A stretch of 63,343 nucleotides of DNA, counting the filler, from Hausera hauseri (Eukaryota), in NCBI GenBank assembly GCA_046269625.1. It is 12 parts of 12 records of this genome, joined end to end, with 100 filler letters (N's around TTAATTAATTAA, not from the genome) between each part and the next. Parts side by side here need not be neighbours in the genome. Positions count along the whole stretch, not along the records: positions 1 to 4,653 come from JBJURY010488686.1; positions 4,754 to 8,954 come from JBJURY010704215.1; positions 9,055 to 15,273 come from JBJURY010123984.1; positions 15,374 to 21,121 come from JBJURY010195748.1; positions 21,222 to 25,364 come from JBJURY010737321.1; positions 25,465 to 30,332 come from JBJURY010409366.1; positions 30,433 to 34,462 come from JBJURY010807865.1; positions 34,563 to 41,768 come from JBJURY010030892.1; 4 more parts are not named here. The stretch is one strand, 5' to 3'. Shown piece by piece: positions 4,003 to 47,838 of the stretch. The position numbers and the translations under genes are program-made. Below the pieces are notes generated by a model, which worked only from the letters and a program-made list of their open reading frames with translations, was not told where the DNA came from and did no database searches. Within the stretch, counting starts at the first letter, position 1. Each line of letters opens with the position of its first letter.

Positions 4003-4242
4003 ATGAAAGTAATGATATGATCCGAGTGGATGGAGGAAAAAGAATGTGAGCTAACTACTTATTCCTATGTAAGGGACGTAAAAGAATGGTTAATAAATAA
4101 TGGTGGAACAAACGAGTTAAATTATAGAATCTACTTTAGAGGTAGAATACTAGACGATTTAGAACAATTAATAGACATCGGGATAATCCCCGATGAAACA
4201 AATCGAATAGTAGTGATAATAGCCAATGAAAAGACAAAATAA
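4003..4242 (+). pseudogene. Ubiquitin-like domain inside the family A polyprotein (no C-terminal GG)
   Basis: MKVMI*SEWMEEKECELTTYSYVRDVKEWLINNGGTNELNYRIYFRGRILDDLEQLIDIGI resembles ubiquitin TIENVKAKIQ...[21 protein letters not shown]. Confidence 0.7.
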
Positions 4243-4653
4243 GAAACCACGCATAAGGCCAAGACGGAACAATGTGTAGGACAAATCATTGGAGTCCGAG
4301 ATGCTGAAATGTATTTCGAGTATTTACAAACGGATGACGACAAGGAACAGTACAAGAATTTAGTAACGCTGAGTGAATTAATAGCCAATATCCCAAGACA
4401 GAAACGCCCGGTCGGAAGGCCTAAGAAGACACGAGAAGTTGACTATAATGGAGAATTGATTAGAGTTGAGACAAATGTCAATTCCGACCCTTAGTACAGA
4501 CAATGAAGAATTAAGCGATTTAATGAAGAATTTAATATATATTGTAAATTACTCCGGCCTCCAAGGTGAAACATTAGACGATAAAGAAAAAGCACTATTT
4601 AATGCAGCTAGAACAATGAAAAGTTTTTATCAAAGAGTAACTTAAGCAATTCA

Positions 4654-4753
4654 NNNNNNNNNNNNNNNNNNNNNNNNNNNNNNNNNNNNNNNNNNNNTTA
4701 ATTAATTAANNNNNNNNNNNNNNNNNNNNNNNNNNNNNNNNNNNNNNNNNNNN
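4654..4753. other. Artificial contig-joining linker
   Basis: 44 N + TTAATTAATTAA + 44 N; stop codons in all six frames; repeated identically 11 times. Confidence 0.97.
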
Positions 4754-5008
4754 ACAAGAAGTCCAAATCTGGCGAATGAAACAATTTGTCTCTGAAATCC
4801 ATCAAATTTGAATATTTTATTTCAGCTGGTGGTGCTGTCATCCAAAATGAAGTAGCATCGTAGAGACTCTTTCCAGTTACACAGCTATATTCCGGCACGA
4901 CGGGATAAAACGACAAAGGTATATCAACTCGTCGGCAATTACAAAAACATATAACAACAGATGAAAAAACGATAACAGTGTATTTACAGGTGCTTGTTGT
5001 GCACAATA
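4754..5008 (-). repeat. Partial 3' LTR of family B copy 1
   Basis: Boundary gcacaata|tcactcccgtg matches gcacaaca|tcaccccccgtg (24160) and gacacaaca|tcaccccc (42734). Shares gtcg(g/a)caatt..aaaacat and gtatttaca with the 42319-42734 LTR. Confidence 0.6.
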
Positions 5009-5227
5009 TCACTCCCGTGACAATGAAGAGACTAGAATGTAAGAAAGTAGAAAATGTGTTAAAACAGTGCAGGCTGTCTAGAAGGTTTTTGTGTGAATAA
5101 GACGTTGTACCCCTGCAATGTTAATCTCCTTACTGTAAATACTAAATGTGACTGATTTTCGAACATTCAATGTCTTTGAATCTGGTTGCAGAGGAGATTG
5201 ATGTAAAACAATGTCAGATTTGGTCGT

Positions 5228-8200
5228 TCAAGGCAATATATCGTTTAGATGCGAGAAAGGGACTGGAGGAGAAAAAATAGGAGAGAAGGAAAGAAAAGTG
5301 GGAAGGTTAGTAGGAGGGTAGTTTGGAGTAGGTTTTGGTAAAGGAGTAGTTGTAGAGGCGGGAATGAAAAGGGGTGTAGGAGGTTTAGGGACTGAAAGGG
5401 GAAAAGGCGGAGAAGTCAAAAAGGAGGTACAAGATTTAATTTGAGATGTATCGTCTACAAAAAAAGAGGGCTTGACGATGTTGATATGACCGCTAGTTCC
5501 TTACCGTCTTTAGAAATAATGGCAGTGTGGGAGTGTAATTGGACGAGTTTGTAAGGCCTCAAATACCGTGGTTGAAAACCGCACGGCGTTTGATTTTTTA
5601 GCCAGACCAATTTTGCCGAATACAAGTCTTTAGGTAAATATGTTTTGTCTTTCTGAAGAAACCTGCAGAACGAATCTTCACTGATTGCAACGAAGTGATT
5701 TTGCACTGCCGTATCGTTTTATCTGTATGAGTGTCGTCTAGGGCAATAATTCGAATAATAACCGTACAGGGGGTGAACAGCCGGTAGAAGTAGACGGAGT
5801 GTTCCGTCAGCCAAGCAGAACAAACGGAAGAAGATTCGTCCAACTAGTGTTGGACTCTGCAAAGATTCTTAGTGACGTTTTCAATGTTCGGTGGAAACGT
5901 TCTAAAAGGCCTTTCGATTACGGGTGATAAGGCATTGTATGTATGTGCTGGATCCCCAATCGGTTAAAAAGGGATTTGAACAGGTTTGATTCAAACTGTG
6001 GACCCTGGTCCGTGATGATAAAGCGGAATGATCCAAACCTGCTAATCCATGTACGAATGACAACGTCAGCTATGGTGTCGGTATTTGTGCTCCGTAGAGG
6101 GATGGCTTCTGGCCATGGCGAAAAACGGTCCATCATGGTGCGAATGAATTGGTGACCGTTGTCCGGAGAAAGAGGGCCGACGATGTTGATATGCATGGAT
6201 TAGAAACGCGATGTGCATGGAAAGTGGAATAGGGGTGGCTTTAAAGGTTTAGTTGTTTTGTATTTTTGGCAGTCCACACACTCCTTAACCCAGGTTTGCA
6301 CATCGGAACGCATTCACGGCCAAACTACTTGTCGGTGGAGTAAACGAAAAGTGGCTTTAGCAACAGGGTGGTTTAGCGAATGTATACTGTTAAACGCTTG
6401 CCGTTGTAAAGGTGGTGCGAGAATTATTACGGAATGACTTGGTTTGGAAGTGTCTAAAGCCACGCAGTCAACAACTGTGTAAGACTTAAAAGAATTAAGC
6501 ATGTCCTGATGTGGCTGGTTCTGTTGAAGTTGTACTTGAGAGAAGATAGGTGAAAAATTAATCGATCCAACCGTCCTAGATAAGAAATCGGCAACCAAAT
6601 TATTAACCTCGTTAATATGTTTTATGTCAAAGTTAAATGTCAACAAATATGATATCTGTCGTTCTTGGCGTAAGGAAGTATGTTTCATAGCCATGATGTT
6701 TATCAAGGGCTTGTGATCGGTCTATAAGGTAAAATTGCGAGCTACAAGTAGGTGGGAGAAATGATTTAAAGCAAGAACAACGGTCAATAATTCTCGATCG
6801 AACGTTGAATATCTAGTTTCAGGGCATGTTAGCTTACGAGAGAAAAACTCCAGCGGTTGATTTTCTCCTTTTTGGATTTGCTGAAGCGCAGCACCTACCG
6901 CAGTGGTTGAAGCATCTGTAGTAAGGATTAGTTCCGCATCAGGCTTGGGGAAAGCGAGAATGTCGACGGTCTTGATTCCTTCGCGTAGCTTATCAAACTC
7001 ATCAACCAGTTCAGGTGTCCACTGGATTGGCTGATGTTTTCTGTCGCCCCTAAGTGAGCAAATGGTGCGGTGGGTTCACAGCTGTACGGCACATACTTGT
7101 GAACGAAGTGCAAAGTTCTTAAAAAGCTCCTCATTTCTGTTGTTGTTCGAGGTAGTTTCACATTTTTGGGGGCTTCAACACGCTCGGGCTGAGGCGAGTG
7201 ACCTTCAGCAGAAATAACGTGACCAAGGAAATTTATACGCTTCTGGAAAAGTGACATTTGGAGAAATTGATCTGCAGGTTATGCTGGTGTAAACGTTGAA
7301 AGATTGATCTGAGGTGTTCCTCGTGTTGTTGGGTCGAAGAGGAAACAATTAATATGTCATCCATATAGGGGTAAGCATATGGAAACTCAGAAAGTATAGC
7401 ATCAACGTGGAGTTGAAAGGTCTGCGCAGCATTCCCCAAGCCGAAAGGCATGAACAGATATTTATAAAAGCCAAATTGAGTAGTGACGGCTGTTTTTTCG
7501 ATATCCTCAGGTGCCACAGGAATTTGGTGATAGGTTTTGGATAAATCCATGGTAGAATAAATTGTAGTGGAATTGAGACGGTGTAAGATATCCTTAATGA
7601 GTGGCAGCGGGTATGCAACCATGATTGTCAAAGTGTTCAACTGACGATAATTACCATATGGTCTAAAAGTTCCATCCTTCTTTTGCACGACATGCCATTT
7701 CGACGACCACGGTGATTTGGAGCGACGTACAATGCCGGAGCGTTCGAGGTCTAGAAATTCGACTTCAACGGCCTGTCTACGACGAGGAGACAATGGCCGC
7801 ACTTTCTGGCCGATAGTTCTCTGATGTTGTGTTATAATGTGGTGAAAATTGGTATTTGCTGGTGTAAAAGACCTGTCTTTTTGAATAATTCTAGAACAAG
7901 ATACGTTGATGAATTGCTGCAGGCTTGCAGGTAATTGTGAATAGTTTGGTGGGAGCGAAGAGGTTTTGTCAGTAACTGTGGAAATTTAAGCGTTATTTGG
8001 TGATAGAAAAGGGAAGTGGTATTCGATGCAGGATGGTAGTATTGAAGATGGTATTGCAGATGGTAGTGTTATCTAGTGACTTGGCAGTGGTAACGGGATC
8101 ACGTTCATCACAGTTCAATCCCCAATCGTCAGTAATATCCTTGTTTAATAATTCATAAAACAAATTGCCATGGTTGTAAAAATGGTTTGTTCAACGTTTT

Positions 8201-8684
8201 TTTAATATCGGTTTTCGACTTGCATCCACCCGCACGACAGAGGAAATTGTATCGACGTGATCAAATCGGTCTTTATTGCAACCACTTGTTAAACAACGTT
8301 GTTTGAAATCGACAAGGAGATTATAGTTCGAAAGAAAGTCGGATTCTAAAATGGCTGTCTGGACATTTGCAACAGTAAACGTCCAGTGGAACGTTTGCGT
8401 AAATTTCGGAAGGGTAAAAGGAAGCCTACATGTACCGGAAACGTGTAGCGGTTGTCAAGAAGCTGTAAAAAGAGGTTTATTGTTGAATGAGGTGTGTCGA
8501 GTTGGAAAGGCGAGTGGGAGTAAAGAAATCGCTGCATCTGAATCGATGAGGAAATCTATGTGGCGAGTTCTTAGTAACGTAGTTACTGCTTTTACGGTAA
8601 ATACGGCGAAAGAAAGTTTTCGGCTGGTAAAAACTAAAGAATGACCTTCGCCAGGTCTAGCCTTAAGCTCTGGCGGCGGCATTA
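5228..8684 (-). pseudogene. pol: pol (protease, RT, RNase H, integrase), multiply frameshifted
   Basis: FLIDSDAAISLLP (protease site, degenerate); SPWSS, KTAVTT.FG..YLFMPFGL, YMDD (RT); TDAS, LEFFSRKL (RH); HINIVGPL, ITDQGPQFES, PYHP (IN). Confidence 0.92.
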
Positions 8685-8954
8685 GTTTTTGGCAGTGGTG
8701 AACATGGACGGCTTTTAGAAGGTAGGAGAGAACGTCCTACGTTCGTATGTTGAGTGTTGCTTCTACAAGTACAATCAGGGATACATTTATATGCATCATT
8801 CTTAAACTTTGCGTGGTAAATGCAAATAGGGTTGTTACTGTGATACTTTTGGGTGTAAAAGCGGCACCCGAGATGACATTTTTGCGCTTTATGAGCGAAT
8901 TTGTCATGTTAAAAACAGATCAGCTATCGCGCAGGAGAAGATGACCGACCTCTG

Positions 8955-9054: not shown

Positions 9055-9081
9055 TGTATTCAATATACATCTTCCATTTTA

Positions 9082-9099
9082 TGGTAGCAGAGCGCGGTT
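9082..9099 (+). promoter_or_regulatory. Primer-binding site, complementary to the 3' end of initiator tRNA-Met
   Basis: TGGTAGCAGAGCGCGGTT a few nt after a putative LTR end (..ttcca). Metazoan tRNAi-Met ends ...CUCUGCUACCA. Confidence 0.8.
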
Positions 9100-9112
9100 A
9101 GGGCTCCGCACC

Positions 9113-11248
9113 GTGATCCGCGTGTACAAACCACGTGATGTTTTGGTCTTTCGAGGTATTCTGTATGTCCGTCTTCTCGTTTTCGGAACTTGTTCACTCC
9201 GTTTTAATGTTAAAGCAAAGGCGAGAATCCTCTACAAAATATGCACGGTGAGGAGCTATGGGGAAATGAATAAAATGAAACGCCCTGACTATTTTGCAGA
9301 GGTTACGCTAAATTGGAGAGTCGTGAAATCTTGCGCCGAAGGCGATAAAAAATTAGAAGATATATCGAGGGTCTATGAACTTGAACAGCTAGAGAATAGA
9401 CCTCAGCGGATAGTTTCACCTGTAACAGATCACAAAGAAACATGTTGTAAACGGCTCGCGTTTGAGGCAAGTGACCGTATATTATTGAACAAATTACAAA
9501 AAGGCATTGGATGTCCAGAACTTCAAGTTGTGGAGAAGCAGTATGAAAAGCTAAGTGAAGAAGCACAAATTAATTATACAAATTCAAAGAAAATATCAAA
9601 TCTTTTTGAAGATAGGGAATTAGAAGGAGTAGAATTACCGTATCAAATAGGAAGAATAAATGGAAAGGCGGTAAACGAGATTTCCGAAAACAGAGTTGGA
9701 GAAATAAGAAAACAGGTAATCATACGTTGTGGCGGAGGTAATTCCGTTGTAGACTTAACGGAACCTAAATTATATTGGGACCTAATTGGGAATATAAAGA
9801 AAACCTTGAGGGTAACTGAGGAGTTCAGTCTATTACATGCCGGAAAACCGCTACAGTCCAATGGAGCAGTGAAAAGCCTAAAACACGGCACAACAATTCA
9901 CTTAACGTTCCAGCTAAGGAGAGGAAGCGAGATAACAACGGATAAACTCGAAGAACATATTGCCGAGCGACGAATACCCATAAATGAATTGCCTTTGATT
10001 TGAAGATTGATGGATGTGAATTTAAACGAACATGATTATAACGTATTCCATCAAAGTTATGTAATCTTTTCGAGTGTACAAGAGGAACTGTGTGTATTGA
10101 CAACTGCAGCCAGGAAATTAAAAACGAAGGAGAATGTAACATTAATAGAGAATGAAATAGAGAAATTAGACGAGCAGAACGAAAAGATCAACGCAGTTAT
10201 CTATGAGAGAAGCTTAAGGGAAAGCAAATTGGCAGTTAATACAATAAAAGGCGTAGACAGTGGTATAAAGGAAAAGGTCATACTGCCGAAGTTACAGAAG
10301 TTAGAACTCCCTAAGTTTGGCGGTGTAGTCACAGAGTATGATAAATGGAAGAGAACATTTGATACCTGCGTTCATAAGACATCAATGTCTGACATATACA
10401 AACAATTGCAATTAAACCAATGCCTGTACGGAGAACCGAAGAGATTAATTGAAAACTTCGACCTGTCTGAAGAAGGCTATAAGGCTGCAATGGGAAAACT
10501 TGACTCTTATTATGGGGGAGAACAACGGTGTTATGCTGCCTTCATGACCGAAGTGATGCGTTTTAAACCAATCAGGGAAGAGGACATCATAAGCCTAGAT
10601 CGATTTGTTGCTTTGTTGGATGGCATAACAATAAGATTGCAAAATTTTGGAAGGAAAGAAGAATTAGGTGGAGGATGATTATATCAAAGTCTTGTAGAGA
10701 AACTCCCAGAATCTATAGTATTATTATGGGAGATATGTCGCCGAAGAGGCTAAATCGAACGGTTGAAAATTTGAAAACTTGGGTGGAGTCGGAAGCGAGC
10801 ACACGGAGGAGCACCATTGAAAGAATTAGAGGTATCAACGTCTTTAATACGTTCGAGGCTAGATCGCCGTCAAGATTTGGAAATGAACATAAATTCGATC
10901 AAACAACTAACAATCGTTCCAGAGTTGAAAATGCAACGTTCGGAATCAGGAGACATGATAAAGAAACACGGAAGAGTTTTTACATAGATAGACAACCTAA
11001 TCAAAATGAGACCCGAGTTCAAGATAAGAAGAGGTAACAGCGTTAAAACAACAAATAAGAACGAGGAAATGCTTTATTGGGAATTTGAGGAGGGGACTTG
11101 TAAATTCGGGAATAATTGTAGATTCTTTCACAAGAAAGAAAAGAAAAATGAAACACGGATATGTAAATACTATCTGAACGGAAATTGTAGGTACGGAGAA
11201 AAATGTAACTTTACTCATAAATTACCGCTAAAAAGGATAATTTTATAA
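9113..11248 (+). pseudogene. gag: BEL/Pao Gag: N-terminal region, ubiquitin-like domain, coiled coil, DUF1759-like capsid, two CCCH fingers
   Basis: LPKLQKLELPKFGG...KWKRTF...LNQCLYGEPKRLIENF...GYKAAMGKLDSYYG; UBL at 9710-9925; CKYYLNGNCRYGEKCNFTH. Confidence 0.85.
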
Positions 11249-11379
11249 AACAAGAAAAAGCGTTCTATACACGAAATACAGAAGAATGAGTAAACAAAGA
11301 GGAAGACATGGGAGACGATATTGAACTACGGGTTAACACGTATGTAATTCAACGATCGGAAGGGAAAACGACAGGAAAA

Positions 11380-14300
11380 TAGCATTACGTACGGTGGACG
11401 TATGGTTGGAAGATGGAGAGCGAAAAATAAGTGTATGTTGTTAGATGATGCGAGTACAGAATGCTTCGTAAAACGTTCTGTCGCAGAGCAATTAAAATTA
11501 ATTGGTAGTCAGGAAAATGTGTCCGTCATGGTGGTAGGTGGAAAAACAACGAAGTCGAAAATGGAAAGAGTAAAAATAAAGTTACGAAGTAAGAACGGGA
11601 AGGTTGACATCCCATTTGAAGCGTTGGTCCTCCATGATCCAACTGGGAAAATAATGGCCGTAAATTGGGAGGTCGAGAAAAGCAAATGGCCACATTTGAG
11701 AGAAATAAAGTTCGCCGCTCAAAAATCGCCGAAATCGGTTGATGGAATAATTGGTGCGAACTATATGCATTTGCATAGGTCTATAAAGGAAATAGCAGGA
11801 AAAGAAATGAACCGGTAGCCAGAATGACTCCACTCGGATGGACGTGCGTTGGTGTGATCGGAGATGAAAGGAAAAAGGTAAGGACAAATTTCGTTGGAAC
11901 ATTTTAGACAAGAACCGTTGAAGTGAAAAAGGATTGGAACAGATTATGGGAAGCAGAACAGTGATTCCAGGAAAAGGCGGAGCTAAATAATTTGGAGATT
12001 GAACTGTTGAAAAAGTAACGAACGGAATAAAATATGAAAAAGATAGATTTTGTGTTAAACTACCCTGTAAGGAAGAAAGGCATCCAGATGTTAGTGGGTT
12101 TGACACATCATGGATGGCAAGGAGATGATTAGAGCTGCTAATAAAGAAATTAGATAAAGATAGTAGGGTAAAAGACGAATACAACAAAGTCATTAAAGAA
12201 TACGAAGAAAAATCATATACAAGAAAAATATCGAAGGAAGAAGAAGAAGAAACCAAATGGCTGTTGCCACATTTTCCTGTTGTCAAGTTTGACCGTGACA
12301 CCACAAAATGTCGTACAGTCTTTGATGCAGCCGCAAAAATCAAGGGAAAGTGTCTAAATGACTTCTTAGAAATCGGCCCAAAGTTACAACTCGACGTAAT
12401 TGACATCTTACTCCGAATGCGTCGTAACAAGTACGTCTTAGTTTGCGACATACACGAGATGTTCCTCCAAATTTCAGTGGATCCAGCAGATAAAAAATAC
12501 CTACGCTTTTTATGGAGGAAAGATGAAAAGGAAGTTTTTTACGAATTCAACAGACTGGTGTTTGGATTGAATAGTTCCCCGTTTTTAGCGCAGTTAGTAT
12601 CCAGAGTTAATGCAGAAGAGTTTAAAGAAGTATATCCGAGAGCAGTAGAAACCATAACGTGTTCAACATATATGGATGATTGTATAGACGCAGTACCCAC
12701 AGAAGATGCAGTAGTAGAATTATATCATGGACTGAATACGATATGGAATAGAGCAGGAATGGCTCCACATAAATGGGCAACTAACTCAGAACAACTTGTC
12801 GCTAAAATCCCACATGTAAAGAAATCGAAGGAATATAATATATTGGAGAAAAACACGATTATCACAAAGACATTGGGTATGAAGTGGGAAGTAGAAAAAG
12901 ACAAATACTCGTTCGATAAAAGGATTATAATTGAAAACACAATCACGAAGAGAACATTACTGAGTGCGGTAGCCAAAATATATGATCCGTTGGGATTCTT
13001 AAGTTGTTATACCATAACCGGAAAGATGATGATACAGGAGTTATGAATTGGGAATTATGGATGGGATCAAAAACTACCAGAGGAGACAACGAAAAGAATA
13101 GTCTTGGATGGAACAGGCCTACTTATTGAACGAAATAGAGATCGAGAGGTACCTGAAATTGGATAAAGATGAGGACTGGGAATTACATATTTTGTGACGC
13201 CTCAAGATTAGATTATGGCGCAGTGGGCTATGTTAGAACCAGGAAAAAGGACGGAGACTTCTCCACTGCATTGGTAGCAGCTAAAGCGAAAGTAACTCCA
13301 GTTAAATCGATAGCGATACCCAGGCTGGAGTTACTAGCGGCTTGCGTGGGAACTAAATTGAAAGAAAGACTAATAAAAGCTTTGGAAGGTAATAATGAAA
13401 AGGTTACACTCTGGACCGATAGCAAAAATGTGTTACATTGGATCCAAAATTGCAGTAAGCACTATAAAACATTCGTAGCAAATCGCATAGCTTACATACA
13501 GGAACATTCATCAAACGTTCAGTGAAAATATGTGAAAACAAGCGAAAATCCAGCAGACGGATTGTCAAGAGGCTAATCTATACAGGAAATAAAGGAGAAT
13601 CATAGTTGGTGGCACGGACCAAAGTTACTGTCTGAAGATGAACTTAGTTCGTCGAAACAACCCAAAGAATTTTCGAAGAAAACGGATGCAGAAAGAAGAA
13701 AAGAAACTGTTAATTTGTTTACATGGTCAGAAAACGGTCACAATCAATAGCTAGAAACAAGAAGTTTTTAATAAGTAATAAAGAGAACAAAACTACATTA
13801 ATGAACGAAAGATCTCGGTGGCAGAATTGTGTTGAATTAAAGGTAAATCAATTAGTACAACAAGAAGGAATAAGCACAATAGAGGTGGACCAATCATATC
13901 TTTTTAACAAGGCCGAAAAAGAACTTATAAAATCAGATCAAGAGCGAGAATTTCAAGCCGAAATAAAATTACTTAAAGAAAAAAGGCTATAAATAACAAA
14001 GGCCCAATATCCAAGGCAGACCCAATTTTAGACACTGAAGGCATCTTACGTTCTAACAGCCGATTAATCACGACACCACGGTTGAGTTGGGAATTCAAGT
14101 ACCCAATAATACTATCATCTAGAAGTCAAATCACAAAGTTGATAATAGAAGATACACATTTAAAACTGAAACATGCTGCGGGAATAAACCACCAGGTGGC
14201 TGAATTGTCTCAAAAGTTTTGGTTCCCAAAAATGCGGAAATTGGTAAAATCCTATCAAAATTATTGTAAAACGTGCCAGAGAGACAGAGCAAAAGTGACG

Positions 14301-15273
14301 AACGTTAAAATGGCTCCTATACCAACATTCAAACTTCAACTTCCTTTAAAGGCCTTCGACAAGATAGGCGTAGACTTTGCAGGACCGATAAATACCAAAC
14401 AAAAAAGAGGACATATCCAAGAAAAACGTTTTATCTGCCTTTTCACGTGTCTTGTTTGCAGAGGAATACATTTAGAATTAGCCTCGGGCCTGGATTCAGA
14501 TTCATTTATTCGAGCGTTTAAAAGATTCGTGTCAAGAAGGGGACGACCATTGATAGTCGTTTCTGATAATGGAACGAATTTTGTCGGAGCCGATAAATTT
14601 ATGAAACACAAGTGGATAGTTACTCAGCGAAATTGAACATGGAGAAAAATCATATTCGATGGATATCTAACCCTCCAGGCGCACCACATTTTGGTGGAGC
14701 CTATGAAGCACTAATAAAATCAGTTAAAAGAACACTGAATAAAATCCTGGGAAACGCTCGAGTCACCGATGAAGAACTATTAACTATTATGTGAGATTGA
14801 AGGAATAATAAATAGTAGACCACTCACATTTCCATCCGTTGACAGTAAAGACGACATAATTCTCACACCTAACCATTTCATTATAGCCGGTCACAACTCC
14901 GAAATCAATCCAAATGTCACAGGTACAACGAAGAGCAGCACAACTGCACGATGGCTATATGTACAGTCAATAAGTGATGAGTATTGGAAAAGATGGAGAA
15001 AGGAATTATTGATAACTTGGAGGACAAAGGAAAAATGGCAGAGTGGAAAAATCGACATTAACCCAGGAGATAGAGTTTGGATACTAGAAACAATAGAAAA
15101 AAGGAACCATTGGCCAGTAGCCGAGATAACTAAAATATTTCCTGGACAAGATGGGATCGTACGAGTTGTTGAAATCTCACAGAACGGTGAGGTCTATCGG
15201 CGACCCATCAATAAAGTTTGTAAAGTAGAAAAGGAATTAAGTGACTGGAATAATTTGGGAGCAATAGATAGTT
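11380..15273 (+). pseudogene. pol: BEL/Pao pol (aspartic protease, RT, RNase H, integrase)
   Basis: LLDDASTECFV; PHFPVV..TTKCRTVFDAAA, LND.LEIGP, DIHEMFLQI, FGLNSSPF, YMDD; FCDAS..YGAV, IPRLELLAA, WTDS; VDFAGP, CLFTCL..RGIHLEL, SDNGTNFVGA, PHFGGAYE. Confidence 0.93.
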
Positions 15274-22700: not shown

Positions 22701-22739
22701 ATTCGTCGAAAATATTGGTCATTATTTCATAAATAGCGT

Positions 22740-26686: not shown

Positions 26687-26699
26687 AAAAGGAAATATA

Positions 26700-36596: not shown

Positions 36597-39500
36597 AGGT
36601 GCCAATCTTACTTCTAAAGTGGTGATTAAACTTTTGTTATTATATCTGAACAATTTAGCTGCTGATGCTTACAGCGAGCTCACTAATTGTGAAAAGAAAT
36701 CTTAGTCCTCCCTAGTAGGATCATTAAGTCGTAAATTATTACAGACAGTAATGCCACAGTAGAAACTTATGGAATTTCAGAATAGTGTGCAACAGGGTGA
36801 ATCGGTAACCCACTATAAAAATGGAAATGTCAATAACGATTATAGAAATTGCCACAACAGTAATAGAAATTATTGTAATGATCGAAATTGGAATAAGTTA
36901 GGTTTAAATACGGATAGAAATCAAGAAGGCTACAAAAACCTCATCAATGGAAACCACTATAATGATAACCGTAATAATGATAGTCGTCAAAATATAGACA
37001 TTAAACAAGGTTCTTTGAACAAGTATAATAGAAATTCGAGACAAATCTAAATCAGCCTGAGACCACTACTCCACAAATTCTGATGGCCAGAAAAGAGTAC
37101 GGAGACAAGTTAACACTATTGGAAATATATCATGGATTAGCAGAACCAGAAACAGAATACGAATATACTGTAGAACCAAAATGAACTGTTATGATGCAAA
37201 AGGAAAGTGTTCCGGCAATTAATAAAATGCTAAATAAACGAGATAAACCAAGAACTTAAACAGAAGTCGATTTAGATGTAAAACTTAAGTATACACTCGG
37301 AAGAGTATATAAAATTACCGAGTATAATATAGACGAAAAAGAATTTATGAAATCATTAATACTTAAAATTACCAAAAATAGAGGCCGTAGTCCCTCAATT
37401 AAACGGAAGCGTAGAAGTTGTTCACGATCTCAAATAACTAAAGGAAAGCACCGAAATCGCTGCAGAAAGCGACACAGGATAATAAGATGAAATAAATGAA
37501 ATTTGCCCAATATCTACTAATGAAGAAGAACCAGAGCACACTAAGAAAATTGACCAGAAAAAGTAAAAGTTAGGCCGAATGAATTAAAAAAAAAGAGAAT
37601 TAACTGTCATGAAGTATTACAGCAGAATCTGGAAAAACTTAAACAAATCAGCGAGTAAGTAGATATTTCATGTAAAGAGCAACAACTTGTTGAGAGGTTG
37701 AATAAAAGTTTGAAGTTATGTAGTGAAGGAAAATTCGATGAAGCAATCGACTTAGAAGAACCTGAAGAAATGCCGCCAAAACGTTAACAAAATGGAAACA
37801 CGAATTAGAATAATGGATCAAACGTGGAGTGCAATTTTCAGAAGGATTGGCAAAAATACAAATAGTGCTGACGTAAAGGTAGCTCAAACTCAAACATTAT
37901 TGACTGCATTAGAAGCAAGTCCCAGATTGAAAAGAGTTGTCCCTAATTTAATATGCATAATGGATGGAATTAAATTTGCAGTGATTAATCGGCTTAGAGA
38001 AAAAGCGGTTAACGAACGAAACGAAATTGATTTATAAATACTGGGTATAGACCCAGTAGATATTCCTCCTTTAATGGATATGATAACGATTGCTTTCGCT
38101 ACATCTGAACAATATTCCAGCTTAAAGAATCGTCTTAAATTTGAGAATGAAAAGAGATCACAAATTTATAGTTTAAAAAACCGAATCATGTTTATGGATG
38201 ACGACGAAGCCAAAATTATAATAAAAGATTATATCGTGGAAATTGATGAGTATAAGGACGAATTTAATTATACCAACCATATTATGAATTTTATAAAAGG
38301 TCCAGATGACAAATTGAAGGACGCTTACAAAATGCTAGATTCAGCAATACTGGCAAAACCTGTAATAGCTAATCAACTAAATGAATGGTCCGAATTGATA
38401 TTGAGACTAAGTAAGCTGGTGAAAAGTCGTATAAAAGAATCTCCAGAAAGTGAGTCTATGATAAAGAAACAATTAAAAGAAAGTTCATGGAATTTAGATA
38501 TAATGAGAATGGAAATAGATACCCAAACGCAGTTCGACGTAACACGACAATTAAACCTTATTGAGTAAATATAAAGAGATGACAATAATTGAAGAGATGT
38601 ACAAAATGACCGAAGAAACAAGGTTTACAGAAAAACGAGATATCACTTGTAATTTCTATTCAAAATTAAGAAATATCCGTCTACAAGGAATTATACATCT
38701 GACAACCAAACTTATTTATGAGATTTCGATACAGGACGCGTTAAAGTTCTTACACAAACCACAGGAGTGGATGACAATAACGGATCATAATTGTCATTCC
38801 GAATTGATGGAAATAAGAAAGGATCATCATCGCAGTTTTGAGGAAACTAAGTTTGTAAAGAAATTGCTTGACGCATGAGATTCCGATTCAAAAATCCTTA
38901 ACGAGATGTAGGAGTTAACACTATTACTGGCAGAAATGGCAAAAATCAATGATGATAAGATGAGGCAATTGATGGTCCAAAACGACAGGCCAAAGAAACG
39001 CGCACTAGAAACAAACAGAGAACAATAAAGTTAGACGAACTAACCAAAGGGTTCGAAATCTACAGAAATAAATATACTTTTACTGAATCAGAAATTAATA
39101 AAAAGTTAGAATTTGTACCAAGGTGACAAAGAGATGTAATTAACGAACTGACTGATTATCGTCAAAAGGGACTTATCCATTCGAATGAACTAGGCGAACT
39201 ATTGAAAATGATCCAGTAGGCCTATGGAAACGGCGTAAGTTTTCGAATCACACAGATGGAAGAAATATAACCAAAATTGAAAGAAATTCGAGGAAACGTG
39301 AAAAAAACAAATACGACGCTAGTAGACTATGGACTTACAGAAATTGGAAATGAACCAGAATGGAATGCGTACTTAGACGCAATAACTGCCGAAAATCGGA
39401 TAACTCCATTATGACTAAATGAAACAGAAATGTGTCCGCAGAATAAAAGATTCAATGTGGAGATTCTCCTGGACGCAGTACTAACTGAAAAAGATTTAAT

Positions 39501-39619
39501 TGAATTAATTAACGTAAATATTACTGAAATTCGCTTAAGGCAACTTATTCCGACTTTAACTAAATTATCTAGCGAAAACACAATTTATAGTGTTTTGGCA
39601 CAGTAATAGAACAAAGACC

Positions 39620-41560
39620 TTTCTCCAAAGTCATTATTGAAAATTGGGAAGCTTACGCCCTAATTGACACAGGTTCTGAGATATCTTACATTAAAAACAA
39701 CTTGATTCCACAAACGTTAAGAGGACAGTTGTATCCGCCATGGACAAGAGATCCTGGAAGCAAAGGAGCCTTTGGTCAAATGTCGAAAGCGATTTTTAAG
39801 TGGAACCAGTAAGTTCATATCTTTGGACAATCTTTACGTCACGATTTTAAAATTATAAAACAATTAACTGACGATGCAGTTCTAGGTTGCCACTTACTGA
39901 AAAGACTACCAAATGTAGCAGTAGACTTGTAAGTAGGAAAAATAATAGAGAGTGAACCGAAAAAAGGGGTAAAGATTGCTAAATATAGAAAATTTGGAGG
40001 AGTATGGATTCCAGTCGATGGAAACATTTTATCAAGAATAGACATGATAATTTACTCGTAAATCTAACAAGATGATGACCAACCAGTGTATTTCGAACCA
40101 AAGTAAACATTAAATCAGAGCATAGTAATTTAATAATGTATTGACAAGAATAAACTTAAGTGCTGTAGCGAATAGTTTACAGAATGACGTATAATACACC
40201 AACCCCAGTCAAGCTATATGCTCATACTACCTTGAGGAATACTTATAGAGTGTCATCCAGAACTTTTGAAGAAAAAACCTTACAAATATGCTGAATTCGC
40301 GCCTTCCGTTGAGACTACGAACTACTATGCCGCTATAAATCATTTATTGCTAAAGAGGACAAAGATATTTGTAGAGCCAAAGCTATAAATTAACTATTCC
40401 ACTTAAGAAAAAGCCTGCTTCAAATGATGAGATAGACCTTGAAGATCAGAAGATGCCGAAATGATATTTTCCACCTCATTTTGCTAGACCCGAAATAACA
40501 AAAGAAGTTGAACACATGTTTAGAACAGACATAATTAAACCCAACTATAGATCTTGGTACTCACCAATCCTTATAGTTAAAAAGAAAGGTACTACAAACA
40601 TCGATTTTGCATCGATTTCAGAGCACTGAATAATCTTATTATAAAATTTTTTTTTCCGCTGCCATCAGTAAAAGAAGCTTTAGACAGGATCTCAGGAGCA
40701 AATTGTTTTAATGCTCTGGACTTACAGTCCGGATATTAGCAAATGGAAATTGAAGATGAAGATCGTTACAAAATGGCATTCAAAACACACGGTAGCGTTT
40801 ACGAATTTAACATGATACCGTTCGGCATTACAAGCGTATCGGCCATTTTTATACGAATGATGAATAAAATGTTATGGTATTAGATCACGCTTTTGCATAC
40901 TCAGACGATGTAATGACAGCGTCAAAAACAGAAACAGAACATTTAAAAGATATGCTAATGAGATTAGAAGAAACGGTATTAAAATTAAATCCCAGAAAAT
41001 CCAAATGGACTCAAAACGCCGTGTCCTACCTTGGCCATATATTTGTAGAAGGAGAATTGAAACCAGATAAATCGTTCTTGAATAAAATATCAGAAGGAGT
41101 TACGACATTGGCTAGGTTTATGTGGATATTACGCAACTTACGTGCCAGATAACTCAAAGATAAATGCACTGTTGTATCGCCTACTTAAGAAAGGAATTAA
41201 ATGGAAATAGACGGATGAAGAACAAAAAGCTTACGCCGAATTAAAGATCTTAACAAGCAAACCAATTTTACGACACCAGGACTTTAACTTGGTACTTATA
41301 ATTAAGACGGATGCCAGTATGGAAAATGTTGGGAATGAACTAGCTGTGAAACGAAAAGACGAAAAATTGAAACATCCAAATGCGTATGGAGGATGTTCGT
41401 TAAAGAAAGCCGAGACGAATTATTCCTTTACAGAATTGAAAATGCTAGCTGTAAAAGAAGCACTATGACACTTCAACGTATACGTTTGCGGACAGAAAAT
41501 CGTAGTCGTTACCGATCATAAAGCCGTCACGACCTTGAAAGGACAGGCAAGTAATCTATT
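39620..41560 (+). pseudogene. pol: pol (protease, RT, RNase H) of family A
   Basis: IDTGS; SPILIVKKK, CIDFRALN, LDLQSGY*Q, PFGI, FAYSDDV, VSYLGH; TDAS, YS.TELK.LAV, TDHK. Confidence 0.85.
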
Positions 41561-41768
41561 ATAGTAGGGAAAAAGGATGGTTTTGGACAAAGGGGGAGGT
41601 CCACCCACGCACCAATTGACCAATCACGTAAGGCTCGCATGCTGATTGGTCAATTTGACAACGGCGAATTCAATAGTGCGGTCGCTTTTTCCGTTTCACA
41701 AAGGACAAAGCCGGGAAATGCAAAAGAAAAATATAAACTTCTTCCAGAAGCAAAATTTGAGCAGTAAT

Positions 41769-42752: not shown

Positions 42753-42883
42753 GGTGGCAAAGTGGGAAATATACAGATAAGGAGGGAAAACGAACACAAA
42801 ATGGAACAGTGTGAATTAACTATATGGTCTTCGTATGTACGAGACGTTGTATTCCTTCATTACTTAACACTCTACTGTAGGTA

Positions 42884-45800
42884 CTAAAAGTGACCGATTT
42901 GATTTTTTTGTGTCGTGGAATCTGGTTGGCAAGTTGATGTGGATAAAACTATGTCGGATATCATAGTTGAAGTTGGTATATTGCTCTGAGGCAAAAAATG
43001 GGCCGGAGATAAAAATGTAAGAGTAAAGGGAAGAAAGGTGGGAAAATTAATGGAAGGAGTTTGAGGGGTAGGTTCTAGTGACGCGGCAGGTGTAGAGTTT
43101 GGAGGAACAGAAATTGGAAAAGGTGGTGGCATCAGGGAAGGTATAAAATTTTTAGTTTGAGGTACATTATAAACGAGAAAGGCGGGCTTTACGTTGTTGA
43201 TGTGCACCGTTAGTTCTTTGCCATCTTTTAGAATAATGGCATTGTGGGAATGTAGCTGAACGACTTTGTAAGGTCCCAGGTACCGTGGTTGGAAACCGCA
43301 TGGTATTTGGTTTCTCAACCAGACGAATTTTGCCGATTATAAATCCTCCGGTAGGTACGTTTTATTATCATTTATTATCCTGCAGAATGAATCTTTGCTA
43401 ACTGAGAAAAAGTGATTTTGTGCCGTTCGAATAGCTTCGTCTCTAAGTGTGTCATCCAACGCAGTTAGTTCAAATAATAAACGTACACGTGTTCCGAATA
43501 ATGCCTCCATATGTGAACAACCTGTGGAAGTAGAAAGGGAGTTACGCCAACCCAGAATAACTAACGGGAGAAAAGCAGTCCAGTTGCTATTGGATTCTGC
43601 GAGGATTCTCATTGACGATTTTAGTGTTCTGTGGAATTTCTCTAGAAGACCATTTGATTGGAGGTGGTATGGTGTAGTGTGAATGTGATTGACTAATAAT
43701 TTGAATAAATTGGACTCAAAATGAGTACCTTGATCCGTAATAATGAACCTAGGAGATTTGTACCTGCTGATCCAAGTGCGTATGAAAACATCGGCTATTG
43801 TGTCAGTGTTAGTGCTCCGTAAAGGGACAGCTTCTGGCCAACGTGAGGCGCGATCCATCATGGTCAAAATGAATTGATGACCGTTGCCAAGAGGAAGAGG
43901 GCCGACGATATCTATATGTACGGACTCAAATCTTGATGTGTAGGGAAGTGATATAATGGTGGCTTTAGATGTTTGGTTTTTTTAAATTTTTGGCAAGCCA
44001 CGCACTCCTTAACCCACGCTTGCACATCAAAACGCATTGTCGGCCATATTACCTGCCGGTGGAATAGGCGAAAAGTTGCCTTCGCACCAGGATGATGTAG
44101 TAAATGTACGCTGTTAAACGCTTGCCTTTGTAAAGGTGGTGCGAGAATTATTACGGAATGACCTGGTTTGAAAGTGTCTAAAGCTACGCCGTCAATGATG
44201 TTGTAAGATCGGAAAGATTTAAGCATGTCTGGAGGTGGTTGGTTTTCTTGCAGCTGGTCTTGTGTGAGTATAAGTTTAAAATTGATGGAGCTAACGGATC
44301 TTGAAAGGAAATTGGCGACTAAGTTGTTTACACCGTTAATGTGTTTGATCTCGAAATTAAACGTCGAAAAATATGAGATCTGACGTTCTTGCATAGATGA
44401 TGGATGTTTCATGGTCATGATGTTAATTAAAGGTTTGTGATCGGTCTGTATGGTCAAACGTCGAGCAGTGAGTAAATGTGAAAAGTGTTTTAAAGGAAGA
44501 ACTGTCGCTAGTAGTTCTCGGTCGAACGTGGAGTATTGAATTTTGGGAGATGTTAACTTGCGTGAAAAAAATTCCAAAGGCTGGTTTTTGCCCTTATAGA
44601 TTTGATGAAGTACGGCGCCCACAGCGGTGGTGGAGGCGTCTGTAATGAAGATCAGCTGTGCATCATGCTTGGGAAAAGCTAATCTTTCGACAGTTTTTAA
44701 ACCTTCTCTTAGCTTTTTGAATTTGTTTACAAGTTCAGGAATCCATAGTATTGGTCGGTATTTTTTTCCACCACTAAGGTGAGCAATTGCTGCGGTAAGT
44801 TTAAAGCAGTACGGCACATACTTGTAAACGAAGTGTAAAGTGCACAAAAAACTCCTTATTTCTGTTGTTGTACGAGGTAGCTGCACGTTTTTTAAGGCTT
44901 CAACTCAGTCGGGCTGAAGCAAGTAACCTTCGGCAGAAATAACGTGGGCAAGAAAATGTATACGTTTCTGGAAAAAGTGACATTTGGCGAAATTAATCTG
45001 GAGGTTATGCTGGTATAAGCGTTGAAAGATTGATCTGAGGTGTTTTTCGTGTTGTTTGGTTGAGGAAGAAATAATTAATATGACATCAATATACGGATGA
45101 GCATTAGGAAAATCGGAAAGGATAGTATCGATGTGGCACTGAAAAGTCTGCGCAGCATTCCGTAAGCCAAAAGGCATGTACAGATATTTGTATGGGCCAA
45201 CAGAAGTAGTGACGGCTGTTTTTTCGATATCCTCGGGTGCCACAGGAATTTAATGGTAGGCTTTGGATAAATCAATGGTAGAATAAATTGCAGTCGAGTG
45301 GAGACGGTGTAAGATATCCTTAATGAGTGGCAACGGGTATGCATCCATTATTGTCAAAGTGTTCAACTGACGATAATCGCCACATGGTCGAAAAGTTCCG
45401 CCTTCTTTTGTACGACATGTAGTGGTGACGACCATGGGGATTTGGAGCGACGTACAATTCCGGAAAGTTCTAGTTCTAGAAATGTGGCTTCAATTGTCTG
45501 TCTACGACGAGGAGATAAAGGACGCACCTTTTAACGGATAGGTCTTTGATGTTGTGTCACAATGTGGTAAAAAGTGGTATTTTCTGGTGTAAAAGACCTA
45601 TCTTTTTGAATAATTCTAGAACAATATACGTGGTTGAATTGCTGCAGACTTGCAGGTAATTGTGAAAAGTTTGGTGGGAGCGAGGAGGTATTACCAGTAA
45701 CTTTGGCAGTATCAGTAACAGTAGCAATTCGGACGTTATTTGGCGGTCGAGATTGAAGTGGTATTCGATGCAGGATGGTAGTATTGAAGACGGTATTGTA

Positions 45801-46427
45801 GCTTGTAGTTTTATCGAAGGATTTGGCAGTGGTAAGAGAATAACTTTCATCGATGTTGAAAACCCAATCGTCAATAGCATTGTTCTTTAGTGATTTATAA
45901 AACAAGGTACCATTGTTGTAAGAAAAAGGTTTGTGTAACAATTTTTTTAATATCGGCTTTCGAGTTGCATTCATCCGTACGACAGCCGAATTTGTGTCGT
46001 CGTAATCGAATCTCTCCTTATTGCGACCAATTGTTAAACAGCGTTGTTTGCAATCGACAAGGAGATTGTGGTACGAAAGAAAATCGGATCCTAAAATAGT
46101 TGTTTGAACGTTTGCAACAGTAAAAGTCTAGTGGAACGTTTGAGTAGATTTAGGGAGGATAAAAGAAAGCCTACTTATACCGGAAACATATAGCGGTTGT
46201 CCGGAAGCTGTAAATAAAGGTTTACTTTTGGATTAAGTGTGTTGAGTTGGAAAGGTAAGCCGTAGTAAAGAAATCGCTGCGCATGAATCGGTAAGGAAAT
46301 CTGTGTTAAGGTGTAGGTATGATGGTGGAGGCTTTTAATGTGAACGCGGCGAAAGAAATTTTTCGGCTATTAAGAAGTAAAGAGTGATCTTCACCAGTGC
46401 TTGCCAAAAACTCTGGCGGCGAAGTTA
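42884..46427 (-). pseudogene. pol: pol (PR, RT, RH, IN), disrupted
   Basis: FRPCGDYRQLN, DAYPLP, IDLSKAYH, MPFGLRNAAQTFQ, TDAS, YSTFDRELLA, TDHKPL, RWPEAVPL, ITDQG, PRYLGPY. Confidence 0.93.
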
Positions 46428-46434
46428 GTTTTTT
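46389..46434 (-). promoter_or_regulatory. Putative -1 ribosomal frameshift signal at the gag-pol junction
   Basis: In-frame A_AAA_AAC then TAA, followed by a CGCCAG...CTGGTG stem; the -1 frame reads LTSPPEF..., homologous to LMPPPEL... of copy 1. Confidence 0.75.
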
Positions 46435-47838
46435 AAAAACGGAGAACCTGAGCGACTGTTATAAACGAAAGTTGTGCGTTTGTTATTTGCATGATGGGAT
46501 TTGTTTTTAAACGTGCAACATGGAATGCATTTGCATGCATTATGTCTGGATTTTGCATGATATATGCAAATGACATTGACCGTATGGTATCTTTGATTAT
46601 AAAATTTGCACCCTAGGTGGCATTTTTTGGCGTTGTTATCAAACTTACCGTGGTAATAGCAAATCAGTAATTGTCTAGGTGAAGGTGAACGACCACGAGA
46701 TACTGAACGGTTACGGTCACGTATGAAACCCTCACGTCGAGTCAATGAAATCTCGTTCAGTTTATTGTTGATATTATTTATTGTTATTTTTAGGGCCACA
46801 TTTTCGGCTCGTAGTTGATTTAACTGTTGTTTGAGTGTAATGTTGTTGGTAGTAATGGCTGCAGAAATGAATGGTTAAGTGTGTGCATTCAAAAGCTCGT
46901 ATGTTTTGTCCGCCAGTTCAGCCAATTTATCAAGTGTTGTCGATTCTTTGACGACAGTAAGTAAGGCTCTAATTTGTATAGGCAATGCGTTCAGGAAGTA
47001 GCGTCGCAAAAGATCAGCGTTGTGCTGTTTAGTCACGCCAAGCGTTTGAAGTATCACAAGTGAAGTTCTGAGGAAATCAGAGGTTTTTGCGTCCCCATAA
47101 CATTGTCGTTGAAGAAACTGTGAATTATTGACTCCATAGATAGTTCAGTAAGCTTTAAAACAGCATTGTAAAGATGGGTGTATGGATCTGCTGGCTGGAA
47201 GATATCTAACAAATCATGAATGGCCCTTTTTACAGTTGTCGGTAAAAGATAAAGCAGATTATAAGCTTTAGTTAGCGGTTCAGTGATGTTGTTAGACTGC
47301 AGCCAAAGTTTATGGTAGCTATGCCAGGTTTTTCTGGACTGTTCGTGGTCGATAAAATACGCCGTTTACTAAGACAAAGTGTATTTGGCTGGCGAGGTTG
47401 AAGAAGTAAAATTACTGAAAGAAGATGGCATGGTAACGGTCGACGATTTTTGGTTAAACCAAAATGTGATGTTTTGGAGGTAGTTTTGTCAGTGATGTTA
47501 ATGGTAGGTAAAGAGACCATTCCACCACGTATGCGAATATGTACGTAAATGGTGATGCAATGGGTTGAAGGTACAGAAAGGTTACGAAGGTTGGCATTAG
47601 TTACTGGAAGATTATTGTATGTAAGATAAAAGTCAGAGATGTTGGCGACGTGTAGTACGTAGTTGTGTAAGTAGGATGAGTTTATGAAATGTGTTATTCT
47701 GTATGTGAGTAAATGGTGATTATTTAAAAAGTATAAAAAGGAAAGAGTCGGTGGAGACCCAAGTGGTTGGTGTGGTATCGGAACACACCATGGCGTAGGA
47801 CTCATTGACTTAGGACAGACGGTTGGGTAGTTGGTCAC
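46425..47838 (-). pseudogene. gag: gag with N-terminal ubiquitin-like domain, capsid region and two CHCC-type motifs
   Basis: HIRIRGG|M; LLRRYFLNALP.QIRALL...LDKLAELADK; CYYHGKFDNNAKKCHLGC and CIYHAKSRHNACKCIPCC. Confidence 0.85.

What the first reader, a model, noticed from the sequence alone, without database searches (positions are those of the whole stretch)
4003..47748. Candidate new system: ubiquitin-like domains in the Gag region of three different LTR-retrotransposon families, two with a diglycine-type junction before the capsid
Seen in the sequence: (a) Gypsy family B has a 76-residue segment ending HIRIRGG|M (47521-47748) and, in a diverged copy, HLRIRGG|M (18780-18803). (b) The BEL/Pao Gag has a 72-residue segment with LLHAGKPLQ...TIHLTFQLRRG (9710-9925). 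(c) Gypsy family A has an internal UBL without GG (4003-4242). Established knowledge: cellular deubiquitinases cleave linear fusions after LRGG (Ub-ribosomal protein fusions; ubiquitin insertions in pestivirus polyproteins). Inference: these elements independently acquired UBLs so that a host DUB releases Gag with a defined N-terminus, without the element's own protease, and possibly frees a conjugatable or decoy UBL. The three UBLs look too different for one recent capture, which suggests convergence. I do not know of a description of this in Gypsy or BEL Gag, but I could not search the literature.
Basis: partly seen in the sequence, partly recalled or inferred. Interest (0 to 1): 0.9.

Follow-up and report, generated by a model that had tools for sequence, protein, structure and literature searches.

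The report
Ubiquitin-fused Gag in two retrotransposon lineages
Two unrelated lineages of animal jumping genes carry a captured ubiquitin-like module ending in Gly-Gly just in front of their capsid protein, most likely so that a host enzyme cuts the capsid free from a long throw-away leader; I found no description of this arrangement, and the cutting itself has not been tested.

Summary
Two of the three cases are real and extend beyond this window.

BEL/Pao: in one Gag clade, 6 of 9 relatives long enough to show the site carry an LxLxGG-type motif 112-121 residues before the Gag core, against 0 of 64 outside it. Five carry a Pfam ubiquitin domain. The window copy is decayed (RG).

Gypsy family B (a CsRn1-like subclade): all 5 members whose Gag start is visible end the module in GG. 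One is a clear ubiquitin domain; the others are weak beyond the tail.

New: the frame upstream of the module is open. In one relative it runs from an ATG inside the LTR through the primer-binding site into Gag. Leader peptides are not conserved, and most junctions have no Met after GG.

Best reading: a host deubiquitinase cuts a disposable leader off Gag (inferred, about 0.65). Family A's segment is ubiquitin-like but lacks GG, is in 1 of 2 copies and is not shown to be part of Gag. Three independent captures and conjugation are not supported. Ten paper searches found no description.

The parts
47521..47748 (-). Family B (CsRn1-like Gypsy) UBL module ending RIRGG; Met follows
   Evidence: homologous to the L006 module (hhalign 62%, E 7e-5); single-sequence fold has a ubiquitin-like strand/helix order but pLDDT 49.7; inside the repeated element by contig cover
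47749..48006 (-). 86 open codons upstream of the UBL (leader, this copy)
   Evidence: other frames 18 and 21 codons; chance about 0.02, so weak alone
46529..47520 (-). Family B Gag (DUF7041-type capsid, two Cys/His knuckles), broken by frame shifts and stops in this copy
43340..46298 (-). Family B pol (PR, RT, RNase H, integrase), decayed
18783..18845 (-). Second family B copy: C-terminal 21 residues of the UBL ending RIRGG, in frame with Gag
   Evidence: tail codons differ from the other copy at two silent sites
18932..19339 (-). Second copy: open leader (98 codons) and N-terminal strands of the UBL (18998-19045), cut off from the tail by a local tandem duplication (18834-18961) and a frame shift
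   Evidence: another frame is open for 75 codons, so weak alone
18201..18782 (-). Second copy Gag capsid region (two stops)
9710..9925 (+). BEL/Pao ubiquitin-derived domain; this copy ends RG where relatives end GG
9056..9709 (+). Open leader in frame with the BEL UBL, running to the contig edge
   Evidence: 214 open codons counted from a 76-residue UBL start, other frames 8 and 28, chance about 4e-7; no Pfam hit
9926..10675 (+). BEL Gag (helical linker, DUF1759 core), one stop
11348..15273 (+). BEL pol (PR, RT, Peptidase_A17, integrase, DUF5641), decayed
4003..4230 (+). Family A ubiquitin-like segment, no GG, stop at codon 6; probably a separate kind of domain
2..3929 (+). Family A Gag (capsid-like, CCHC knuckle, long extension), shared with the second copy
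36597..41768 (+). Second family A copy: shared region followed directly by PR-RT-RNase H, no UBL
5078..8954 (-). Third family B copy; the contig starts at the knuckles, so the junction is not visible

Best explanation
One BEL/Pao clade and one CsRn1-like Gypsy clade each carry a ubiquitin-derived module fused in frame to the front of Gag (shown for BEL and for L003; for the other Gypsy members the GG tail and position are shown and the fold is likely). Ribosomes start far upstream, in the Gypsy clade at an ATG inside the LTR. They read through U5, the primer-binding site and the untranslated-looking leader, whose peptide is disposable (open frame shown; translation inferred). A host deubiquitinase or UBL protease then cuts after GG. 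This drops the leader-UBL piece and frees Gag with a small, stable first residue, needing neither its own start codon nor the element's aspartic protease (inferred from known linear-fusion processing). The module lets an RNA-constrained 5' region be translated without harming the capsid. Family A's GG-less segment is not part of this mechanism.
For: BEL: motif 112-121 residues before the Gag core in 6 of 9 clade rows long enough to show it, 0 of 64 outside. All 8 UBL-bearing rows fall in one 18-row set, SH-aLRT 98, quick tree. Pfam ubiquitin above cut-off in P0127, P0128, P0132, P0138 and P0146. UBL identity of 35-67% between Gags whose cores are only 25-43% alike. Gypsy: GG in 5 of 5 members with a visible Gag start, covering all three subclades of a 16-row RT clade with support 100. 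GG codons vary silently. The outgroup L012 has a closed upstream frame and a normal ATG after its primer-binding site. Over 13 junctions: G76 in 13, L/I73 in 13, hydrophobic 71 in 13, G75 in 11. Leader: L005 has an LTR from 3986, ATG at 4142, PBS at 4419, 185 open codons to the UBL at 28% GC, with 13 and 16 stops in the other frames (chance about 2e-5). L006 has an ATG at 4608 in its LTR and 174 open codons through the PBS at 4993. L003 has 350 open codons. L005 vs L006: leader 22% (z -0.5), UBL tail part 31% (z 9.5), capsid 60%, RT 79%. The residue after GG is S, T, G or M in 12 of 13 junctions and never Pro; M/G/A/S/T/V make up 0.275 of nearby residues (rows are related, so this counts as about 4-5 independent cases). 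In L005 and L006 the first Met after GG lies inside the capsid domain. Precedent: FUBI (36% identical to ubiquitin) and SDE2 are cut GG-dependently, and Pro after GG blocks the cut (passages).
Against: No cleavage, translation or start site was measured. The fold of the s9/L005/L006 module is unproven: the profile match to ubiquitin is confined to the tail (probability 2.5%, 20 columns; E 0.29 or worse; probability 0.6%), and searches with the low-confidence model gave nothing significant. Two of 13 junctions lack G75 (window BEL; P0128, which also has Asn after it), and tails such as NLYGG and QLLGG may be poor DUB substrates. In L006 the leader frame and the UBL frame are out of phase near 5080-5132 (decay, assembly error or programmed shift). 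Three of 13 junctions have Met right after GG and could start there. In four BEL rows the UBL is better conserved than Gag, which is more than a bare cut site needs and hints at a further role. The BEL search used a UBL-bearing query and showed 150 of 1267 hits.
Confidence: 0.65

Rival explanations
1. The module is cut, but its main job is to act as an in-cis chaperone or expression booster for Gag, as proposed for ubiquitin-ribosomal protein fusions; the open leader is secondary.
For: UBL better conserved than the Gag core in four BEL rows; the in-cis chaperone role is stated for Ub-RP and FUBI fusions (passages).
Against: Does not explain why 174-350 codons of non-conserved leader are kept open; the Gypsy modules have drifted far from ubiquitin except in the tail.
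Confidence: 0.15
2. The released leader-UBL is itself the functional product: a decoy for ubiquitin readers or DUBs, a conjugated modifier, or a membrane-anchored accessory protein akin to glyco-Gag of murine leukaemia virus (that analogy is recalled).
For: P0127, P0132 and P0146 keep K11, K27, K29, R42 and K48; the three Gypsy leaders have hydrophobic stretches (best 19-residue Kyte-Doolittle mean 1.8-2.2).
Against: R72 and R74 are both kept in only 5 of 13 junctions (their role in E1 recognition is recalled). Leaders share no detectable sequence and have no Pfam family. Hydrophobicity is expected from AT-rich DNA.
Confidence: 0.1
3. The UBL stays on Gag (for ESCRT or proteasome targeting, or copy-number control), or is removed by the element's own protease; GG is a relic of capture. 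This may be the right reading for family A.
For: Two junctions lack G75; family A has no GG; an uncleavable ubiquitin fusion can drive HIV Gag release or UFD degradation (passages).
Against: GG outlasts the rest of the module over very long divergence, with silent codon changes. An uncut product would carry 75-350 residues of arbitrary leader. The residue after GG is restricted.
Confidence: 0.08
4. Artefact: chimeric assemblies or gene calls joining host ubiquitin pieces to retroelements.
For: Most relatives are short unnamed metagenome contigs; one hit, P0274, does look chimeric.
Against: The same junction position in 7 database BEL proteins from three sources and in 5 Gypsy copies; graded divergence from ubiquitin; restriction to clades.
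Confidence: 0.02

Closest known systems
Ubiquitin and UBL insertions of cytopathic pestiviruses (BVDV) (PMC13517609, abstract and passages read)
   Same: Host ubiquitin sequence captured in frame into a selfish RNA's polyprotein, repeatedly and independently. That it creates a host-protease cut site is recalled; the passages I read did not state it.
   Different: There the insertions are sporadic, strain-level and internal (before NS3). Here the module is fixed across old clades, has diverged, sits before Gag and follows a leader that starts in the LTR.
FUBI-eS30 (FAU) and Ub-eS31 / Ub-eL40 fusions (PMC8354635, abstract and passages read)
   Same: A diverged UBL (36% identity) with GG that is cut from its partner by a DUB (USP36); AA and GV mutants block the cut; an in-cis chaperone role is proposed.
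   Different: Host genes whose UBL is at the very N-terminus; no leader; not mobile.
SDE2 (PMC6486553, passages read)
   Same: An N-terminal UBL cut after GG to define the partner's first residue.
   Different: SDE2 exposes a destabilising Lys, whereas these elements expose S, T, G or M.
Ordinary BEL/Pao (Belpaoviridae) and CsRn1-type Ty3/Gypsy (Metaviridae) elements
   Same: DUF1759 or DUF7041 Gag, PR-RT-RNase H-integrase order, PBS, polypurine tract and LTRs.
   Different: In the ordinary relatives seen here Gag has no UBL, and in L012 it starts at an ATG after the PBS with a closed upstream frame.
Extra domains in LTR elements, e.g. AlkB in orchid Gypsy (PMC9289625, passages read); 2A StopGo peptides in non-LTR elements and retroviral glyco-Gag (both recalled, not read)
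   Same: A captured host domain kept by a clade; a device that separates proteins made from one frame; N-terminally extended Gag.
   Different: None of these is a ubiquitin-type host-protease site at the Gag N-terminus.

Membership tests
BEL/Pao LTR retrotransposon (9055-15273) | DUF1759 Gag, then PR, RT, Peptidase_A17, integrase, DUF5641 | tested here: met
BEL/Pao LTR retrotransposon (9055-15273) | LTRs and primer-binding site | tested here: inconclusive
   the contig begins inside the open leader; no PBS-like match there
CsRn1-type Ty3/Gypsy (family B) | RT groups with elements bearing DUF7041 (PF23055) Gag; PR-RT-RH-IN order | tested here: met
   the name CsRn1 is recalled, not from a call
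CsRn1-type Ty3/Gypsy (family B) | Gag starts at an ATG downstream of the PBS with no extra N-terminal domain | tested here: not met
   true of outgroup L012, not of L005, L006 or L003: a derived subclade
Ubiquitin family (PF00240): BEL module | Profile match above cut-off | tested here: met
   met by 5 database relatives; the window copy is below cut-off but matches their profile
Ubiquitin family (PF00240): family B module | Profile match above cut-off | tested here: inconclusive
   met by L003 only; no hit for the window copy, L005 or L006
Ubiquitin family (PF00240): family B module | Beta-grasp fold | tested here: inconclusive
   single-sequence model pLDDT 49.7 with order strand-helix-strand-strand-helix-strand; ISG15 heads the Foldseek list but at E 0.77 or worse; no significant VIA match
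Cleavable linear UBL fusion (type I UBL precursor) | C-terminal GG preceded by hydrophobic-x-L/I-x, no Pro after it | tested here: met
   11 of 13 junctions have GG, none has Pro after it; the window BEL copy and P0128 lack G75
Cleavable linear UBL fusion (type I UBL precursor) | GG-dependent cleavage by a DUB or ULP | not testable with these tools
   needs a bench assay
Conjugatable ubiquitin-type modifier | Conserved R72 and R74 and intact core surface (criterion recalled) | tested here: not met
   both arginines in 5 of 13 junctions; only P0127 and P0132 look compatible overall
Cleavable UBL fusion: family A segment | C-terminal GG | tested here: not met
   positions 72-76 carry no glycine
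Ubiquitin family: family A segment | Profile or fold match | tested here: inconclusive
   Pfam E 0.0045 below cut-off; ungapped in-register match; model pLDDT 42; Foldseek E 2.2 or worse

The most novel reading that the evidence does not exclude
Two LTR superfamilies independently evolved the same expression strategy: translation starts inside the LTR, runs through the primer-binding site and packaging leader, and a host deubiquitinase frees the capsid protein. A host DUB would then be a required cofactor for particle formation, a possible tissue or stage gate on transposition and a lever for host control, and the diverged modules would be natural probes of DUB specificity.
Probability: 0.45. 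Interest if true: 0.9.

Novelty: new variant of a known kind. Interest (0 to 1): 0.8.

Why it matters
Gag N-termini of LTR elements are normally set by a start codon after the primer-binding site or by the element's own protease (established knowledge, recalled). Here two clades appear to hand this step to the host ubiquitin system and to translate through their own cis-acting RNA signals. If true, this is a new host dependency of retrotransposons that a simple reporter can test. It would be a heritable, ancient counterpart of the sporadic ubiquitin captures in pestiviruses, and a natural series of ubiquitin variants, from near-canonical to barely recognisable, that keep only what a protease needs. 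It also warns annotators, because calling Gag from the first Met hides the module.

Tried and rejected
No host genome is held, so a genome-wide count of copies was not possible.

Protein searches: the family B Gag search in the 118-377 residue range found none of 53 candidates. The second gave 2 of 311 hits, one chimeric and one an ordinary outgroup Gag.

Locus scans: six viral-contig scans and one prokaryote-genome scan found nothing. No DNA loci were obtained for the BEL clade, because its alignment was too divergent for pattern search. Family A has no relative outside the window, so its status stays open.

Atlas and folds: BEL segment best score 0.79, a lead only; family B no hit. Both folds were single-sequence and low-confidence, and the fold searches were not significant. 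A profile of six database BEL UBLs scored the window segments only weakly (best E 0.5 in six frames).

Sequencing runs: one holder, possibly the source sample, and no RNA holder listed. The variant table was cut before the GG codons, so invariance across genomic copies was not tested.

Rejected as chance: GG-like words at the start of two pol proteins (P0015, P0044) and in P0141 and P0238 at other distances. No complex prediction was run, since no host DUB sequence was available.

Earlier scan findings: nothing bearing on this.

Papers: searches (plus 72 for pestiviruses) gave no description of a UBL-Gag fusion in LTR elements. One search used a spelling that may miss the slash form of BEL/Pao. 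PMC11011659, PMC9289625 and PMC2774666 were searched for 'ubiquitin' and had only reference-list hits or none. Supplements were not opened. Repbase, Dfam, GyDB and subscription journals could not be searched and may hold a note on this.
Full report
Setting. The window is a string of 12 contigs of 4-8 kb joined by N-linkers; no whole genome is held. It is rich in decayed retroelements. The host is probably an animal, an inference from the BEL/Pao and CsRn1-type elements and a DNAH5-like dynein piece. The three families of the finding lie on different contigs, and copies within a family are about 65-75% alike.

Observation. On their own they are weak: Pfam ubiquitin E 0.035 for the BEL segment, E 0.0045 for family A and no hit for family B, all under the cut-off. 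The question therefore had to be settled with relatives.

BEL/Pao. A phmmer search of the window's UBL plus Gag over 1.84 billion representatives gave 1267 hits, of which 150 were shown. Seven have the module directly before Gag: P0127 (LRLRGG|S), P0132 (LRLRGG|S), P0146 (LNLYGG|S), P0138 (LKLRGG|G), P0131 (LRLKGG|M), P0124 (FKLKGG|S, the closest at 67%) and P0128 (MRLKEG|N). Five pass the Pfam ubiquitin cut-off, P0127 with 97 bits, and the best PDB matches of P0132 are ubiquitin itself. They come from ENA, JGI and MetaClust records.

On a quick tree of the 135-column Gag core, all 8 module-bearing rows fall in one 18-row set with SH-aLRT 98; the careful search did not finish. Of the 17 database rows in that set, 8 begin too late to show the site. 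Of the other 9, 6 have the motif 112-121 residues before the core, P0128 has the degenerate form, and two long-branch rows have none. Outside the set, 0 of 64 long-enough rows have it at that distance and 2 have a similar word elsewhere. The window's segment matches a profile of these database UBLs (probability 72%, 0 of 40 shuffles as high) but ends RG in a copy that also has stops. Among four rows the UBLs are 35-67% identical while the Gag cores are 25-43%. This means strong selection towards ubiquitin in part of the clade, or refreshing from host mRNA; the window lineage has drifted to 20 of 69 identities with P0127.

Gypsy family B. Its RT groups with DUF7041-Gag elements. One metagenome scan with a pol alignment gave 16 loci, three of which show the Gag start. 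L003 has a full ubiquitin domain above cut-off ending QLLGG|S. L006 ends LRIRGG|T and L005 ends LRLQGG|T. With the two window copies, that is GG in 5 of 5 visible junctions, spread over all three subclades of a 16-row RT clade with support 100 (FastTree); the other clade loci do not reach the junction. The outgroup loci L012 and L013 have no module, and seven outgroup proteins start at Met with none, though gene calls cannot show what lies upstream.

The glycine codons differ silently among the five. The window module is homologous to L006's (probability 62%, E 7e-5). Contigs of the one run that holds this DNA cover the module far more deeply than the dynein flank (2279 and 736 against 42-98), so it is part of the repeated element; this is not a copy number, and the run may be the source sample. 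Against this, the core of the window, L005 and L006 modules is not shown to be ubiquitin-like: profile matches are confined to the tail, and the single-sequence model has the expected order of strands and helices but pLDDT 49.7 and no significant fold match.

L005 and L006 are circular contigs with collapsed LTRs, so the region upstream of Gag can be read. In L005 the LTR starts at 3986, an ATG lies at 4142 and the primer-binding site at 4419. The frame is open for 185 codons from that ATG to the UBL and on into Gag, at 28% GC, with 13 and 16 stops in the other frames. One 3-codon ORF precedes it. In L006 an ATG at 4608 inside the LTR opens 174 codons through the PBS at 4993, read in the same phase, but this frame is out of phase with the UBL frame near 5080-5132. 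L003 has 350 open codons to the contig edge and the window BEL element 214. The two window Gypsy copies have 86 and 98, which is weak alone. The outgroup L012 has a closed frame and an ATG after its PBS.

The leaders are not conserved: L005 against L006 gives 22% (z -0.5) for the leader, 31% (z 9.5) for the UBL tail part, 60% for capsid and 79% for RT. No leader has a Pfam family, and upstream of the P0146 module sits an Hsp90 fragment. So openness is kept and sequence is not. Transcription starts were not mapped.

Junction. Over 13 junctions, G76, L/I73 and a hydrophobic 71 are constant, G75 is in 11, and both R72 and R74 are in only 5. The next residue is S, T, G or M in 12 and never Pro. 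I left P0128 (degenerate tail, Asn next) out of the probability estimate. M/G/A/S/T/V make up 0.275 of nearby residues, so 4-5 independent cases give p of about 0.002-0.006 (that these residues are stabilising is recalled, and some can be acetylated). In L005 and L006 the first Met after GG is already inside the capsid domain, so Gag cannot simply start there.

Mechanism. Shown: module, position, clade restriction, tail conservation, open non-conserved leader. Inferred: translation of the leader, cleavage after GG by a host enzyme, and release of Gag with a stable N-terminus. The precedents are direct. FUBI, 36% identical to ubiquitin, is cut from eS30 by USP36, and AA or GV blocks the cut. 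SDE2 is cut after GG to expose a chosen residue. Pro after GG blocks cleavage. BVDV strains capture ubiquitin in frame repeatedly. I put about 0.75 on GG-dependent cleavage and 0.65 on leader removal as the main purpose. The chaperone, decoy and uncleaved readings share the rest and are not exclusive.

Family A. The segment begins with a Met in exact register with ubiquitin and aligns without gaps over 49 residues, but the scores are weak, the model is poor and there is no GG. Likeness to the second copy ends near 3930-3940, where that copy goes on to protease and RT. The segment may be a C-terminal Gag extension of one subfamily, a separate ORF with an N-terminal UBL, or an unrelated insert. 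No relative was found. It is not evidence for the cleavage system.

Origins. One capture in each of two clades fits the trees; one capture followed by transfer between superfamilies cannot be excluded. The claim of three independent captures is not supported.

Novelty. Nine searches aimed at this arrangement found no description. Three papers on LTR element domains had no relevant mention in their main text. For the four precedent papers I read passages, plus the abstract for two; no supplements were opened. Repbase, Dfam, GyDB and subscription journals were out of reach. The chemistry is known; its fixed use at the Gag N-terminus, coupled to translation from within the LTR, appears new. Verdict: new variant of a known kind, interest 0.8.

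Noticed in passing
whole window: Twelve contigs joined by N44-linker-N44 with stops in all frames; neighbourhood across linkers means nothing.
   Followed up: yes
window 10900-11250 (+); P0124 408-454: The window BEL element and its closest relative have two CCCH-type zinc fingers where a CCHC knuckle would be expected in Gag.
   Followed up: partly
window 46529-46661 (-); L003, L005, L006, L009, L010: The UBL-bearing Gypsy clade has a doubled Cys/His knuckle, whereas outgroup Gags seen here (L011, L012, P0275) have one.
   Followed up: no
P0146 76-141; P0124 920-993: Host gene pieces in frame with BEL elements: an Hsp90 fragment upstream of the UBL, and a CFAP58 coil after the protease region. 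Capture or misassembly not distinguished.
   Followed up: no
window 47976-49274 (-): DNAH5-like axonemal dynein fragment abutting the family B leader; it seems to jump from the AAA4 region to the stalk in another frame, so it is probably a decayed or processed copy (the stalk assignment is recalled).
   Followed up: partly
window 4240-4651 (+): After the family A UBL: a helical stretch, an AT-hook-like GRP motif (label recalled) and a further short frame, with no convincing Pfam hit.
   Followed up: partly
window 21854-23608 (-): Long frames that resemble Sec31 by recall only; no Pfam or PDB support.
   Followed up: partly
window 27058-29585 (+): Decayed DNA polymerase B (organellar/viral type) pieces, Polinton-like.
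   Followed up: no
window 55022-58092 (+): Near-intact LINE with endonuclease and RT frames, and an ORF1-like frame at 54158-54622.
   Followed up: no
window 53087-54056: Diverged tandem array with a unit of about 95-105 bases.
   Followed up: no
window 30433-34462 (-): Integrase-tail-like frame (33503-33931) followed by unassigned frames (31331-32515) with no Pfam hit; possibly an extra ORF of another element.
   Followed up: no
L003 92-281: An 85-base tandem duplication inside the open leader that keeps the frame (spacing 105), consistent with selection for openness only.
   Followed up: partly
P0274: A family B Gag C-terminal half joined to a bacterial-looking N-terminus; probably a chimeric assembly.
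   Followed up: partly
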